A DNA stretch of 64,000 nucleotides, taken from NCBI GenBank assembly GCA_964364855.1, contig CAYINU010000002.1:2337-66336 (forward strand), written 5' to 3'. The translations under genes were made by a program, and so were the position numbers. Every line of letters begins with the position of its first letter. Positions within the stretch are counted from its first letter, which is position 1. The notes below the pieces were generated by a model. It worked only from the letters and a program-made list of their open reading frames with translations. It ran no database searches and was not told the DNA's origin. Origin of the DNA: an uncultured Candidatus Marinamargulisbacteria bacterium (GTDB lineage: Bacteria > Margulisbacteria > Marinamargulisbacteria > CAYINU01). Shown here piece by piece: positions 24,695 through 27,168 of the stretch.

Positions 24695-25412
24695 TCGCCG
24701 AGACCCTGATCAAGAACGACCTTTAACCATCGTCCGTAAATTCACGAAATATGCGCCCGGATCCGTGCTCATTTCCTTCGGGGAGACAAAGGTGTTGTGT
24801 ACGGCCACCATCGAGGAAAAAGTACCGCCTTTTCTAAAAGAGTCGCAAAAAGGCTGGGTGACTGCAGAATATTCGATGCTGCCAGGCGCCACGCATACCC
24901 GCAGCGTCCGAGAGGTCAAGCGTGGCCATCAGTCCGGGAGAACTACCGAGATCCAGCGTCTTATCGGACGGTCGTTGCGCTCGGTTATCGATGGAAAAAA
25001 GCTGGGAGAGCGGACCATTACGGTTGACTGTGACGTGTTGCAAGCGGATGGCGGGACACGTACTGCGGCGATTACCGGCGGAATGATCGCGATGTGGGAC
25101 GCAGTACAGTATCTATTGTCCGAGCGTAAAATCAGGCAAAACCCGATTACCGAATTTTTGGCCGCCGTCAGTGTGGGCATCGTGGATGATCAGATTATGG
25201 TGGATCTTTGCTACGATGAAGATGTGCGCGCCCAAGTGGATATGAATGTGGTTATCACCCAGTCCGGGGCCTTGGTTGAAGTTCAGGGCACAGGCGAGGA
25301 ACGGCCGTTTAGCCGCCATCAATTTGATGCCATGCTGGATGCCGCGACGTTGTCGGTCGGACGCTTGATTGCGGCTGCGCGAGAGTCCGTGGGTGAGCTG
25401 ACGGTGGCATGA
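24684..25412 (+). CDS. rph: ribonuclease PH
   Basis: [41 protein letters not shown]...[14 protein letters not shown]...[18 protein letters not shown]... matches Rph. GGAG at 24671-24674 is the RBS for ATG 24684. Confidence 0.9.
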   Translation: [242 protein letters not shown]

Positions 25413-26065
25413 ATCTGATTTACGAACAGATCGTTCGACAGATTCAGTCGGCGTTACTGGTCACAGATTCCAAACTTCGCATTTTATATATCAACGAAGT
25501 CGCATGGCAGACTTTTATGGCCAGTCCTGCCGCTCGCGTGGGACGGTCCGTCCGACGGGCCTTTTCTCCGAGTGTTGTTCGCGTTCTGACAGAGGCTTGG
25601 CAACAGGTTCAAAAGACCCAGGCCGCATGGCGCGTGGATGAGTTCAAGTGGGTCAGTCGCACCCCCGAAAAAACGGAAAAGATAATCGGGTTTACAGCCT
25701 CCCCGTGGCGATCGGAGCACTCTGGGACGATCGAAGGGATGATTATTTCAGCAAAGGACATCACGCATCTGATTGCCATGCAAGAGCAAATCAAACATTC
25801 TCAGAAATTGGGCATCATTTCGCAACTGGTGCTTACCCTGCATCATGAGATCCGAAATCCCCTGACTGCTATTTCGACGGCGGTTCAAATGATCAATTCG
25901 CACCGGGTAAGCGATGCCGCCAAAATGGAGGCCCTGTGCAAAATTATCGAAGAAAAAGCGATCGCTATCGAAAACGTCATGCAAAAGCTCAACCAGATTA
26001 CGGAACCCGTTATTGAAATGTATCCTGGCGGCGTGCCGTTTATTGATCTGAAACGGTCCAAATAA
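25409..26065 (+). CDS. PAS + HisKA (dimerisation/phospho-acceptor) protein lacking a kinase ATPase domain
   Basis: An N-terminal PAS-like region is followed by the H-box LHHEIRNPLTAISTAVQMI. The protein ends about 60 aa later with no N/G1/G2 boxes in any downstream frame. The start overlaps the rph stop as ATGA. Confidence 0.7.
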   Translation: MNLIYEQIVRQIQSALLVTDSKLRILYINEVAWQTFMASPAARVGRSVRRAFSPSVVRVLTEAWQQVQKTQAAWRVDEFKWVSRTPEKTEKIIGFTASPWRSEHSGTIEGMIISAKDITHLIAMQEQIKHSQKLGIISQLVLTLHHEIRNPLTAISTAVQMINSHRVSDAAKMEALCKIIEEKAIAIENVMQKLNQITEPVIEMYPGGVPFIDLKRSK

Positions 26066-26584
26066 ATGCATGCGTTGGCAATGACCTCCCGACAGAATGC
26101 CTTGGCTCTCCATATCTTATTTTTTGCCTATGCGCTGTGTCCGTTTTCGGCCTGGAAAGACATGCTTTGGCAACTCATTAAGCTTGAGCTTTTTTATATC
26201 GGGGGGGCGTGTAAAAAAACAGGCAACTGCTGTGAAGGTATCGTGTTGACGGTGGAGGGCCACCTGATTGAGACGATTGAGGCCTTTGAGAACGCGCGAA
26301 AAAAGCACGCCGAATTGACTTGCTTTGAGCCTGCTGGTGTGGGTAGCGTATTTAACTGCCGGAATCTGAAACCTGACCGGACTTGCGCGGACTACGCCAA
26401 TCGGCCGCAATTGTGCCGAGCGTATCCTGCCAATCATTTTTTTTCTGGCAACCGGTTTTATGATGACTGCGGGTTTAGGGTGATACCAAAGGCGTGGCAC
26501 ACCCTCATTTCCTCCCATCGGGGCTTACATCGACGTGTTCAGGATTTTGCGGCCACTTACGATGTTGTATGGCGGGGTAATTGA
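26066..26584 (+). CDS. YkgJ/UPF0153-type Cys-rich (putative Fe-S/zinc-binding) protein
   Basis: GGACKKTGNCCEG is a degenerate CxxCxxCC motif. C...NCRNLKPDRTCADYANRPQLCRAYP matches the family motif C.IY..RP..CR.YP. The ATG directly follows the upstream TAA (taaATG). Confidence 0.55.
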   Translation: MHALAMTSRQNALALHILFFAYALCPFSAWKDMLWQLIKLELFYIGGACKKTGNCCEGIVLTVEGHLIETIEAFENARKKHAELTCFEPAGVGSVFNCRNLKPDRTCADYANRPQLCRAYPANHFFSGNRFYDDCGFRVIPKAWHTLISSHRGLHRRVQDFAATYDVVWRGN

Positions 26585-27168
26585 TGGATCCCGTTTCAAC
26601 GTTTTACATTACGGACCGCCACTACAACCTCATCATTCGCCAGGGCATAGCCAACTATCCGCAAGAAAGCGGTGGATTTGTGGGAGGGCGGTCTGGTGTC
26701 ATTTTGGGTGTGCTGCCCGTATTCAATCAGCATTTGTACAACAAAACCGATACCTATGGCTTGGGTCCCGAAGATACGCTCCGTGCCCACCAGTTTTTTG
26801 AAAAACATCGCCTGACCTGTTTTGGAGTATACCACTCCCATCCCAAGGGCTTGCCCGAGCCCTCGTTTCAGGATTTAAAATCCGGCAATAAATTTCATTT
26901 CATTGTCGGCCTACGTGACCTCAAAAACCCGGTTTTGTTTTGCTATGAGGCCCGCGGATTTCAGGCTCAGGCCATACCCTTGGTCGTGATTACCGAAAAA
27001 GACCTACCCCAATACTTACCCGCGCAAGATGTGGCTCGTTACCATCCCAACTTCGAGTCCATTGACCTCTCCCAGAAGATCGAAGACATCAAAAATCAGA
27101 CCATTTTATATCCGAAAAATCCGCCCACAGATCCCCATAACCCGGATGGATTTAGTACGTTTGCCTAA
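26581..27168 (+). CDS. JAB/MPN+ (JAMM) zinc metalloprotease with a C-terminal extension of about 90 aa
   Basis: The complete JAMM motif is present: ...YPQESGGFVGG... (Glu) then GVYHSHPKGLPEPSFQDL, which is H-x-H-x7-S-x2-D. The start overlaps the upstream gene as ATGA. Confidence 0.75.
   Translation: MMDPVSTFYITDRHYNLIIRQGIANYPQESGGFVGGRSGVILGVLPVFNQHLYNKTDTYGLGPEDTLRAHQFFEKHRLTCFGVYHSHPKGLPEPSFQDLKSGNKFHFIVGLRDLKNPVLFCYEARGFQAQAIPLVVITEKDLPQYLPAQDVARYHPNFESIDLSQKIEDIKNQTILYPKNPPTDPHNPDGFSTFA

What the first reader, a model, noticed from the sequence alone, without database searches (positions are those of the whole stretch)
25409..27168. Tightly overlapped three-gene module downstream of rph: PAS-HisKA protein without an ATPase domain, YkgJ-type Cys-rich protein and JAB/MPN+ metalloprotease
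Junctions. rph, the PAS-HisKA gene, the YkgJ-like gene and the JAB gene are joined by ATGA, taaATG and ATGA junctions. They are therefore almost certainly co-translated as one unit.

Domain content. Gene 1 has a PAS-like N-terminus and an intact H-box (HEIRNPL). It stops before any N, G1 or G2 box, and no downstream frame encodes them. It is therefore a phospho-acceptor/dimerisation domain with no kinase of its own. Gene 2 carries the YkgJ/UPF0153 cysteine pattern: a degenerate CxxCxxCC motif plus C..NCRNLKPDRTCADYANRPQLCRAYP. Gene 3 has a textbook JAMM active site (E, HSHP-x7-S-x2-D) plus an uncharacterised C-terminal half of about 90 aa.

Missing partners. Bacterial JAB proteins normally sit next to ubiquitin-like, E1 or E2 partners, phage tail genes or CBASS. 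None of these is adjacent here. The only ThiS-like gene in the window is 12 kb away and already ends in GG. I do not recognise this HisKA-only + YkgJ + JAB combination as a described system.

Possible functions. A redox/metal-sensing Cys protein and a deubiquitinase-like protease acting on, or regulated through, a phosphotransfer scaffold is one possibility. A novel processing or defence module is another.
Basis: partly seen in the sequence, partly recalled or inferred. Interest (0 to 1): 0.7.

Follow-up and report, generated by a model that had tools for sequence, protein, structure and literature searches.

The report
Three unrelated genes behind rph
Three small genes packed behind the RNase PH gene of an uncultured Margulisbacterium do encode a kinase-less sensor protein, a cysteine-rich metal-binding protein and a JAB-type metalloprotease, but about 75 related loci show only the protease is a regular resident there, so this is an ordinary housekeeping operon with add-ons rather than a new three-part system.

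Summary
Window 25409-27168 carries three tightly joined ORFs after rph:
- g1: PAS + HisKA, no HATPase.
- g2: PF03692 (CxxCxxCC/YkgJ-type).
- g3: Prok-JAB with an intact JAMM motif.

The reading as a module does not hold. The window is from a Candidatus Margulisiibacteriota MAG. Its backbone, recG-rsmD-coaD-hyp158-rph-JAB followed by proA, proB and obg on the opposite strand, recurs in marine relatives.
- In 11 genome loci JAB follows rph with no gene between.
- A g2 homologue lies between rph and JAB in six other loci.
- g2 homologues also occur without JAB in seven loci.
- JAB occurs without g2 in about 48 loci, 22 of them divergent from an H+-pyrophosphatase gene.
- g1 has no homologue in any of the 76 loci and nothing above about 32% identity over most of its length (40% over shorter stretches) in 1.84 billion proteins.

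Tight junctions occur at 13 of 50 same-strand gene pairs in the window, so they are not special.

Each gene is a new member of a known kind:
- JAB belongs to a family seen here only in this phylum, with a near-invariant C-terminal F-S-T-x-A tail and no adjacent Ubl or E1.
- g2 belongs to a CxxS/TxxCC subfamily with seven invariant cysteines.
- g1 belongs to a scattered family of "HisKA, no HATPase" proteins with a conserved C-terminal motif.

Interest is low to moderate.

The parts
19839..21926 (+). recG, first gene of the conserved backbone
   Evidence: Pfam RecG_wedge, DEAD and Helicase_C. The same position is occupied by RecG in L003, L004, L007, L009, L018.
22027..23223 (+). AAA_16-type ATPase, a low-GC insertion specific to this window and not part of the module
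   Evidence: Pfam AAA_16 2.7e-8. GC is 0.36-0.44 against about 0.55 in the flanks. Absent between recG and rsmD in related loci.
23233..23751 (+). rsmD-like methyltransferase (name from sequence appearance, not tested), backbone
   Evidence: Homologues at the same position in at least 12 loci.
23739..24221 (+). coaD-like gene (name from sequence appearance, not tested), backbone
   Evidence: 53-68% identical homologues at the same position.
24218..24694 (+). conserved hypothetical protein (hyp158), backbone
   Evidence: No Pfam or NCBIfam hit. Homologues lie upstream of rph in at least 12 genome loci plus four metagenome loci.
24684..25412 (+). rph (RNase PH)
   Evidence: TIGR01966 1.1e-104. 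Its stop overlaps the g1 start as ATGA.
25409..26065 (+). g1: cytoplasmic PAS + DHp (HisKA) protein without a catalytic ATPase domain. It carries the conserved C-terminal tail EPVIEMYPGGVPFIDL.
   Evidence: Pfam PAS_4 and HisKA, no HATPase_c. Nearest solved structure is ThkA 3A0R, aligned only to residues 85-190 of 349. 13 representative clusters share the tail and end 2-19 aa after it. Absent from all related loci.
26066..26584 (+). g2: PF03692 (YkgJ/CxxCxxCC-type) Cys-rich protein of a CxxS/TxxCC subfamily. An alternative start is likely at 26081.
   Evidence: PF03692 4.9e-8. Seven invariant Cys (C49, C55, C56, C98, C107, C117, C135) in 11 homologues. Hydrophobic N-terminal segment.
26584..27168 (+). 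g3: stand-alone JAMM/MPN+ metallopeptidase with a C-terminal helical extension and a disordered tail ending FSTFA
   Evidence: PF14464 8.7e-10. Invariant E28/H84/H86/S94/D97. AF2 pLDDT 86; the core superposes on PfJAMM1 5LD9, TM-score (target-normalised) 0.85. The tail FSTxA is present in 40 of 50 phylum loci.
27201..27704 (+). hicB-like / hicA toxin-antitoxin pair, an insertion between JAB and proA
   Evidence: HicA_toxin 2.9e-8; HicB-like is weak at 0.038. Absent in relatives where proA, or another gene, follows JAB closely. GC is 0.43-0.45.
27701..30773 (-). proA, proB and obg (names from sequence appearance, not tested) on the opposite strand, the far end of the conserved backbone
   Evidence: Homologues in the same order after JAB in L003, L004, L007, L009, L012, L018.

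Best explanation
This is not a dedicated three-component system. It is a conserved housekeeping gene string of marine-type Margulisiibacteriota: recG-rsmD-coaD-hyp158-rph-JAB, followed by proA, proB and obg on the opposite strand. Accessory genes have been wedged into it, and tight junctions are the norm in this compact genome.

History of the three genes (inferred from comparison).
- The JAB gene is the regular neighbour downstream of rph.
- The YkgJ-type gene g2 is an accessory gene restricted to one clade. It sits between rph and JAB in some lineages only.
- The PAS-DHp gene g1 is an insertion seen only in this genome. The AAA ATPase upstream and hicBA downstream are similar insertions.

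Likely mechanism of each protein (inferred, not shown).
1. JAB is a Zn-dependent JAMM isopeptidase/peptidase of the desampylase/Mec+ type. It probably cleaves at the C-terminal Gly-Gly of a ThiS/MoaD-like carrier encoded elsewhere. Its conserved disordered tail, F-S-T-x-A at the carboxyl end, probably docks it to a partner.
2. g2 binds an Fe-S cluster or Zn through seven invariant cysteines. It may be held near the membrane by an N-terminal hydrophobic helix.
3. g1 forms a PAS-regulated DHp dimer that cannot autophosphorylate. It probably acts on a response regulator as a phosphatase or phospho-relay, because the H-E-x-x-N motif is intact. Alternatively it titrates a partner kinase.
For: Source organism. 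The JAB protein and its relatives are named Candidatus Margulisiibacteriota, Saganbacteria or WOR-1.

Synteny.
- The backbone genes are found in the same order in L003, L004, L007, L009, L010, L012, L018.
- rph is followed by JAB with no gene between in 11 genome loci: L004, L005, L007, L008, L009, L010, L012, L014, L015, L018, L026.
- g2 homologues lie between rph and JAB in L002, L003, L068, L069, L070, L074.
- g2 homologues without JAB: L066 (rph-g2, then a convergent Mg-chelatase-like gene) and L067, L071-L073, L075, L076.
- JAB lies divergent from an H+-PPase gene in 22 Saganbacteria/WOR-1 loci and after a SpoU methylase gene in three.
- g1 has no hit in any locus, only a self hit, and no hit below E = 1e-30 in the exhaustive search.

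Junctions. Tight junctions are common in the window, 13 of 50 pairs.

Compositional insertions. The AAA ATPase and hicBA are low in GC.

Protein-level evidence.
- JAB: JAMM residues invariant; fold matches PfJAMM1, also solved bound to SAMP2, and 2KKS; tail conserved in the phylum and absent from 15 outgroup JABs.
- g2: seven invariant Cys. FliB is the one experimentally studied protein with a related Cys motif that I found; it holds a [4Fe-4S] cluster on that motif and associates with the membrane (PMC8598068).
- g1: there is a family without the ATPase domain. HisKA is found in 13 of 13 members and HATPase_c in 0 of 13, with a conserved tail, on contigs up to 308 kb.
- A phosphatase or phospho-acceptor role for such proteins is proposed in PMC5847659.
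Against: - The g2-JAB adjacency recurs in seven loci counting the window. In an unresolved neighbour-joining tree the three g2-bearing loci that were included (window, L002, L003) branch deep in the rph clade. An ancestral functional pairing later lost in most lineages is therefore not excluded.
- Gene order alone cannot exclude that g1 was recruited in this genome to regulate its neighbours.
- Only +/-5-6 kb of context was examined, in MAG and metagenome contigs. Partners encoded elsewhere in the genomes are invisible.
- None of the three proposed biochemical activities was tested.
- The JAB substrate is unknown. The ThiS-like gene in the window already ends in GG, so it needs no processing.
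Confidence: 0.75

Rival explanations
1. g2 and JAB are a functional pair in marine Margulisbacteria. An Fe-S or redox protein would control, mature or supply a substrate to the JAMM peptidase. The pair would be ancestral to the rph clade and g2 secondarily lost or relocated in most descendants.
For: - g2 lies immediately upstream of JAB in the window and in L002, L003, L068, L069, L070, L074, with gaps of -7 to +42 nt.
- The three g2-bearing loci in the JAB tree branch deep in the rph clade.
- Both proteins are metal-dependent by family.
Against: - JAB is retained without g2 in 11 rph-JAB loci and in all Saganbacteria/WOR-1 loci examined. Its catalytic residues and tail are unchanged there.
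- g2 homologues occur without JAB in seven loci. Five of these follow a giant repeat protein.
- All co-occurrences share one syntenic position after rph. They therefore count as one evolutionary event rather than repeated independent association.
Confidence: 0.15
2. The triplet works as one signalling and proteolysis module in this genome. The PAS-DHp scaffold would sense a signal and, through g2, gate the JAB protease.
For: - Tight junctions and the same strand, so co-transcription with rph is plausible.
- All three ORFs are intact and have conserved functional residues.
Against: - The triplet is unique to this genome among 76 loci.
- Tight junctions are common here between unrelated genes.
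- No response regulator, ATPase-domain protein, Ubl or E1 was found among the window ORFs that were scanned with Pfam: 872-10131, 14736-19842 and four later ORFs.
- No defence-system model matches g1 or g2.
Confidence: 0.05
3. g1 is a decaying remnant of a full-length histidine kinase whose ATPase domain was deleted when g2 or neighbouring DNA was rearranged. It would have no function.
For: - The best hits covering most of g1 are kinases of 540-600 aa. g1 residues 3-182 align to about residues 211-385 of these, so both the N-terminal sensor/TM part and the C-terminal CA domain are missing.
- No close homologue exists.
Against: - The ORF is intact, with an intact H-box and PAS domain.
- Its last 25 residues match a motif, P-V-x3-Y-x-G-G-x2-M-[IL]-D-[IL]. 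Thirteen independent clusters lacking the ATPase domain share it, with different sensor domains, and all end just after it. One cluster has 72 members of identical length.
- This looks like a maintained architecture, not random truncation.
Confidence: 0.05

Closest known systems
Archaeal JAMM1 desampylases (Pyrococcus furiosus JAMM1, PDB 5LD9/5LDA; Haloferax HvJAMM1) and uncharacterised bacterial Prok-JAB proteins (PDB 2KCQ, 2KKS)
   Same: - Single-domain JAMM/MPN+ fold.
- E...HxH-x7-S-x2-D zinc site.
- Best sequence-profile and Foldseek matches: 2KCQ 2.4e-14, 5LDA 2.6e-10; TM-score (target-normalised) 0.84-0.85.
- NCBIfam desampylase is the best named hit.
   Different: - The score of 36 bits is far below the desampylase equivalog cut-off of 130.
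- It carries a 58-aa helical and disordered C-terminal extension ending in F-S-T-x-A. This is absent from 15 outgroup JABs.
- No SAMP, ThiS or E1 gene is adjacent.
Mec+ / CysO-cysteine hydrolase of the mycobacterial CysO-CysM pathway (the automatic JGI name given to several family members)
   Same: A stand-alone bacterial JAMM peptidase predicted to act at the C-terminal Gly-Gly of a ThiS/MoaD-like carrier (names). The mechanism is taken from general knowledge of the family.
   Different: No cysO, cysM or moeZ gene neighbours it in the window or in the 50 phylum loci inspected. Neighbours are rph, an H+-PPase gene or a SpoU methylase gene.
CBASS Cap3 and Bil-type JAB deconjugases of anti-phage systems
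   Same: JAB fold. There are weak PADLOC JAB hits (best 7e-7, 27 bits) and NCBIfam Cap3 at 0.026. Cap3 9ILD appears among the Foldseek matches.
   Different: No CD-NTase, E1/E2 (Cap2) or Ubl gene is nearby. The gene is a syntenic resident of a housekeeping string across the loci of this phylum that were sampled, not an island gene.
PF03692 CxxCxxCC proteins (E. coli YkgJ; Salmonella FliB flagellin lysine methylase, which has a related Cys motif)
   Same: - The Pfam score is above the gathering threshold.
- It has the distal C-x8-C-x9-C R-P-x-x-C-R-x-Y-P motif.
- Membrane association is possible, as reported for FliB.
   Different: - The second Cys of the name-giving motif is always Ser or Thr (C-x-x-[ST]-G-N-C-C) in all 11 subfamily members.
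- It is 160-180 aa long, and its Cys spacing differs from FliB's CX4CX3CC.
- No flagellin context.
- Metal content is untested.
'HisKA, no HATPase' non-enzymatic HK-like proteins (Galperin et al. 2018, PMC5847659; 'possible incomplete histidine kinase' in P2CS). The nearest solved kinase is Thermotoga ThkA (3A0R).
   Same: An N-terminal PAS sensor, then a C-terminal HisKA/DHp domain with a conserved His, and no ATPase domain.
   Different: - Those described are mainly archaeal.
- g1 and 13 clusters share an extra conserved C-terminal motif, P-V-x3-Y-x-G-G-x2-M-[IL]-D-[IL]. The few that carry an organism name are bacterial (Anammoxibacter, Armatimonadota). The passages I read do not mention this motif.
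- No member has been studied experimentally.

Membership tests
JAMM/MPN+ metallopeptidase (Pfam PF14464 Prok-JAB) | Profile score above the curated threshold | tested here: met
   38.9 bits against a cut-off of 25, E = 8.7e-10.
JAMM/MPN+ metallopeptidase (Pfam PF14464 Prok-JAB) | Catalytic motif E ... H-x-H-x7-S-x2-D | tested here: met
   E28, H84, H86, S94, D97 are invariant in 25 aligned homologues. The strict regex is also met in the outgroup loci.
JAMM/MPN+ metallopeptidase (Pfam PF14464 Prok-JAB) | MPN fold | tested here: met
   AF2 mean pLDDT 86, core above 90. Foldseek against 5LD9: E = 8e-10, TM-score (target-normalised) 0.85, rmsd 2.2.
Desampylase / Mec+ type Ubl-processing enzyme (functional equivalence) | Equivalog-level similarity, and a ThiS/MoaD/SAMP-like carrier plus E1 in the neighbourhood | tested here: not met
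   - NCBIfam desampylase scores 36.1 bits against a cut-off of 130.
- No Ubl or E1 gene among the conserved neighbour families within about +/-4.5 kb in 50 loci.
- The only ThiS-family gene in the window is 11.5 kb away and ends GGG.
Desampylase / Mec+ type Ubl-processing enzyme (functional equivalence) | Isopeptidase or peptidase activity on a Gly-Gly-linked substrate | not testable with these tools
   Needs a biochemical assay.
CBASS Cap3 / Bil JAB (anti-phage) | Co-location with a CD-NTase, or with E1/E2 and Ubl genes | tested here: not met
   PADLOC gives only weak JAB hits and nothing for the neighbours. Neighbours are housekeeping genes.
PF03692 CxxCxxCC (YkgJ/UPF0153-type) | Profile score above the curated threshold | tested here: met
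   34 bits against a cut-off of 23, E = 4.9e-8, residues 48-124.
PF03692 CxxCxxCC (YkgJ/UPF0153-type) | Canonical C-x-x-C-x-x-C-C motif | tested here: not met
   The motif reads C-K-K-T-G-N-C-C. The second Cys is Ser or Thr in all 11 subfamily members. Seven other Cys are invariant.
PF03692 CxxCxxCC (YkgJ/UPF0153-type) | Binding of Fe-S or Zn | not testable with these tools
   Only FliB has been shown to hold a [4Fe-4S] cluster (PMC8598068). The AF2 model of g2 was unusable, pLDDT 42.
Sensor histidine kinase (HisKA class) | DHp domain with a phospho-acceptor His (H-box) | tested here: met
   HisKA 28.8 bits against a cut-off of 26.9. H-E-I-R-N-P-L is present.
Sensor histidine kinase (HisKA class) | Catalytic HATPase_c domain (N, G1, G2 boxes) | tested here: not met
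   - No HATPase_c hit.
- The protein ends 73 aa after the His.
- It aligns only to residues 85-190 of the 349-aa ThkA.
- The next ORF is g2, which has its own homologues.
'HisKA, no HATPase' non-enzymatic HK-like proteins (PMC5847659) | N-terminal sensor domain(s), a C-terminal HisKA-like domain with a conserved His, no HATPase | tested here: met
   PAS + HisKA only. 13 related clusters have HisKA in 13 of 13 and HATPase_c in 0 of 13.
Conserved three-gene operon or system (PAS-DHp + YkgJ + JAB) | Recurrent co-occurrence of the three genes in other genomes | tested here: not met
   0 of 76 loci carry a g1 homologue. g2 and JAB are adjacent in only six other loci, all at the same syntenic site.

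The most novel reading that the evidence does not exclude
Two things remain open.

1. The tail-bearing JAMM peptidase and the CxxS/TxxCC Fe-S protein could be a true functional pair in marine Margulisbacteria. One example would be Fe-S- or redox-dependent control of deconjugation of a ThiS-like sulphur carrier linked to tRNA modification. That would fit the rph and SpoU neighbours.

2. g1 could represent an unrecognised, widespread class of kinase-less PAS/GAF/REC-DHp signalling proteins. The class would be defined by a conserved C-terminal P-V-x3-Y-x-G-G-x2-M-I-D-L motif that replaces the ATPase domain. In this genome it could have been recruited to regulate the pair.
Probability: 0.1. Interest if true: 0.55.

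Novelty: new member of a known kind. Interest (0 to 1): 0.25.

Why it matters
As a "system" it matters little. The comparison shows how tight junctions in a compact genome can make unrelated genes look like a module.

Three small leads survive.
1. JAB is a single-domain JAMM peptidase family found in 50 Margulisiibacteriota species genomes, a sister lineage of Cyanobacteria, and seen here only in that phylum. It has a near-invariant C-terminal docking-like tail and no linked Ubl machinery. Its substrate could reveal how Ubl or sulphur-carrier chemistry is organised in this lineage.
2. g2 defines a PF03692 subfamily with seven invariant cysteines that lacks the name-giving second cysteine. This is useful for working out which cysteines bind metal in this poorly understood domain.
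3. g1 points to a scattered family of DHp proteins without the ATPase domain that share a conserved C-terminal motif. This would give the so far unstudied "HisKA, no HATPase" class a concrete, testable sequence signature.

Tried and rejected
- Word-indexed homologue searches for g1 and g2 returned only the proteins themselves. g2 relatives came from loci. g1 relatives came from the exhaustive search.
The single-sequence model was unusable, pLDDT 42.
- The afdb50 fold library was unavailable. I therefore could not ask whether tail-bearing JABs exist outside the phylum by structure.
- PADLOC found nothing for g1 or g2 and only weak JAB hits, so the defence-module reading was dropped.
- The promoter and terminator scan gave fewer sites than in shuffles and no convincing internal terminator. 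It says nothing either way about operon structure.
- Rfam found no RNA element in the region, only two tRNAs elsewhere.
- Composition does not mark g1 or g2 as foreign: 0.46-0.53 GC against 0.50-0.56 nearby. The AAA ATPase and hicBA are clearly lower.
- I considered g1 to be a pseudogene remnant. I rejected this because of the shared conserved tail in the family lacking the ATPase domain.
- I considered the in-window ThiS-like gene as the JAB substrate. It already ends in GG and is not linked, so this stays speculation.
- No response regulator or separate ATPase-domain protein was found among the window ORFs scanned.

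
Full report
**1. What is in the sequence**

The ORF list and raw sequence show four consecutive plus-strand genes: rph (24684-25412), g1 (25409-26065, 218 aa), g2 (26066-26584, 172 aa) and g3 (26584-27168, 194 aa).

- rph: RNase_PH; TIGR01966 1e-104.
- g1: PAS_4 1.5e-9 and HisKA 1.3e-6, no HATPase_c.
- g2: PF03692 CxxCxxCC, 4.9e-8.
- g3: PF14464 Prok-JAB, 8.7e-10; the best named NCBIfam model is desampylase, at 36 bits against a cut-off of 130.

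Junctions.
- rph/g1 is an ATGA overlap.
- g1/g2 is TAAATG.
- The database version of g2 is 167 aa. That fits a start at the next in-frame ATG, 26081, and would leave 15 nt after g1. I inferred this from the length only.

The junctions are not special. 13 of 50 same-strand neighbouring pairs in this window have a possible start within -4 to +3 nt of the upstream stop, including functionally unrelated pairs.

**2. Where the window comes from, and the comparative test**

The JAB protein has 65 relatives in the 5.8-billion-protein search. All those that carry an organism name are from Candidatus Margulisiibacteriota, Saganbacteria or WOR-1. A genome scan with the JAB alignment returned 65 loci. 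Fifty are from this phylum and 15 are distant JABs.

I compared the window's proteins against all ORFs of these loci. The window lies on a conserved backbone: recG-rsmD-coaD-hyp158-rph-JAB, followed on the opposite strand by proA, proB, obg, rpmA and rplU. (Names other than recG and rph are from sequence appearance; they were not tested against a family library.) This order recurs in L003, L004, L007, L009, L010, L012 and L018.

Results for each gene.
- **JAB after rph.** In 11 genome loci JAB follows rph with no gene between (L004, L005, L007, L008, L009, L010, L012, L014, L015, L018, L026). In several the genes overlap, just as in the window.
- **g2.** A homologue lies between rph and JAB only in L002 and L003 among the genome loci.
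- **g1.** No homologue in any locus (phmmer).
- **Other JAB contexts.** In the second large JAB clade (Saganbacteria/WOR-1) the gene is divergent from an H+-pyrophosphatase gene, often with an acylphosphatase gene, in 22 loci. In three loci it follows a SpoU-type RNA methylase gene.

The reciprocal test started from g2, using a metagenome scan analysed. It gave 11 loci.
- Four have rph-g2-JAB (L068, L069, L070, L074).
- One has rph-g2 followed by a convergent Mg-chelatase-like gene and no JAB (L066).
- Six have g2 with neither rph nor JAB. Five of these (L067, L071-L073, L075) follow a giant repeat protein, more than 1,200-1,600 aa on the contigs long enough to show it.

Summary of the comparison.
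- The triplet is unique to this genome.
- The g2-JAB pair occurs in seven loci, always at the same syntenic site.
- Each partner is found more often without the other.

The window also carries two further local insertions. A low-GC AAA_16 ATPase lies between recG and rsmD. A hicB-like/hicA pair lies between JAB and proA. So this stretch has repeatedly accepted accessory genes.

**3. The JAB protein**

- E28, H84, H86, S94 and D97 are invariant in 25 homologues.
- The AF2 model (pLDDT 86) has a confident MPN core (residues 1-136). After it come helices (138-170) and a low-confidence tail.
- Foldseek and profile searches place the core nearest to P. furiosus JAMM1 (5LD9; 5LDA is the complex with SAMP2) and to the uncharacterised bacterial proteins 2KKS and 2KCQ.
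- The C-terminal extension is about 58 aa, not 90.
- The extension ends in a conserved motif. F-S-T-x-A at the carboxyl end is present in 40 of 50 phylum loci. Six more have close variants (F-[NST]-[TA]-x-A). Three of the other four are cut off by contig ends (L035, L048, L049), and L013 ends differently (SWSRCI). None of the 15 outgroup JABs has the motif.
- A conserved motif at the end of a disordered tail is most simply read as a docking peptide for a partner. That is inference.
- No Ubl, E1 or E2 gene appeared among the conserved neighbour families of the 50 loci. The ThiS-family gene in the window (14736-15026, minus strand) is 11.5 kb away, between a signal-peptidase gene and what appears to be gyrB, and ends GGG.

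**4. The YkgJ-type protein g2**

- Eleven homologues, 26-37% identical to g2, share seven invariant cysteines: C49, C55, C56, C98, C107, C117, C135.
- They also share G-N-C-C, R-P-x-x-C-x-x-Y-P and C-G-Y motifs.
- The second Cys of the canonical CxxCxxCC is Ser or Thr in every member. This is therefore a stable subfamily signature, not decay.
- The N-terminus has a moderately hydrophobic 19-residue segment (Kyte-Doolittle 1.0-2.2).
- The one experimentally studied protein with a related Cys motif that I found is FliB. It binds a [4Fe-4S] cluster through that motif and associates with the membrane (PMC8598068).
- Fe-S or Zn binding by g2 is thus a reasonable but untested inference.

**5. The PAS-DHp protein g1**

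The exhaustive search of 1.84 billion representatives found 4,120 hits, none below E = 1e-30.
- The best hits covering most of g1 are ordinary kinases of 540-600 aa, about 30% identical.
- g1 residues 3-182 align to about residues 211-385 of these kinases.
- The nearest solved structure, ThkA (3A0R), aligns only over residues 85-190 of 349.

g1 is nevertheless not a random truncation.
- Thirteen representative clusters share its DHp (H-[EQ]-I-[NR]-N-P-L) and its last 25 residues (P-V-x3-Y-x-G-G-x2-M-[IL]-D-[IL]). They end 2-19 aa after that motif.
- Pfam finds HisKA in 13 of 13 and HATPase_c in 0 of 13. The N-terminal modules vary: PAS, GAF, REC, 7TM.
- Members carry names from Anammoxibacter and Armatimonadota MAGs. 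One cluster has 72 members; all those listed are 349 aa, on contigs up to 308 kb.
- The architecture is already described as "non-enzymatic HK-like proteins (HisKA, no HATPase)". A phosphatase or phospho-acceptor role has been proposed but never tested (PMC5847659; also PMC1183210).
- g1 keeps the H-E-x-x-N residues. From my own knowledge of HisKA kinases, these are the residues implicated in phosphatase activity.

**6. Verdict**

The interpretation as a three-gene system is not supported. The most likely account (confidence about 0.75) is a housekeeping operon with lineage-specific insertions. Each of the three proteins is a new member of a known, poorly characterised kind.

Residual possibilities.
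- A g2-JAB functional pair in the marine clade: about 0.15.
- A genome-specific functional triplet: about 0.05.
- g1 as a dead remnant: about 0.05.

Nothing here is categorically new. The three modest leads are the JAB tail, the CxxS/TxxCC subfamily and the C-terminal motif of the DHp family that lacks the ATPase domain.

Noticed in passing
window 22027-23223 (+): A 398-aa AAA_16/ATPase_2-type ATPase with much lower GC (0.36-0.44) than its flanks (about 0.55). It sits between recG and rsmD, where related genomes have no gene. It looks like a foreign insertion. PADLOC gives only weak hits.
   Followed up: partly
window 27201-27704 (+): A hicB-like (weak, 0.038) and hicA (2.9e-8) toxin-antitoxin pair lies between JAB and proA. 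It is absent at this position in relatives and has slightly low GC.
   Followed up: partly
window 24218-24694 (+); homologues in L002-L010, L014, L015, L018, L026, L066, L069, L070, L074: A conserved 140-160-aa protein with no Pfam or NCBIfam match always lies immediately upstream of rph, and overlaps it, in the marine-type clade. Its function is unknown.
   Followed up: no
window 14736-15026 (-): A ThiS-family gene (PF02597) ending VGGG sits alone between a signal-peptidase (S26) gene and what appears to be gyrB. It is not in a thiamine or molybdopterin operon. It is a conceivable sulphur-carrier or Ubl substrate for the JAB peptidase, but nothing links them.
   Followed up: partly
L067 3842-4381; L071 and L072 4893-5414; L075 4938-5447; L073 317-826: g2-type Cys-rich genes overlap or abut the 3' end of giant repeat-rich ORFs, more than 1,200-1,650 aa and cut by the contig ends (on the short contig L073 only a 110-aa fragment precedes g2). 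In L071-L075 a conserved acidic-tailed ORF of 158-177 aa follows, and then YchF where the contig reaches that far. This is a second recurrent context for the subfamily.
   Followed up: partly
L019-L046 (22 loci), e.g. L036 3559-5900: In Saganbacteria/WOR-1 the tail-bearing JAB gene is divergently paired with an H+-translocating pyrophosphatase gene. An 89-aa acylphosphatase gene often lies beyond it. No functional link is apparent.
   Followed up: partly
proteins P0082-P0215 (one search hits), not in the window: A scattered family of sensor-DHp proteins lacks the ATPase domain and ends in a conserved P-V-x3-Y-x-G-G-x2-M-[IL]-D-[IL] motif. Their N-terminal modules vary (PAS, GAF, REC or 7TM).
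   Followed up: partly
window 2219-7977 (+): A DtxR/FeoA-type metal repressor is followed by a ZnuA-type binding protein, an ABC ATPase and two ABC-3 permeases. This is an ordinary Mn/Zn uptake operon.
   Followed up: no
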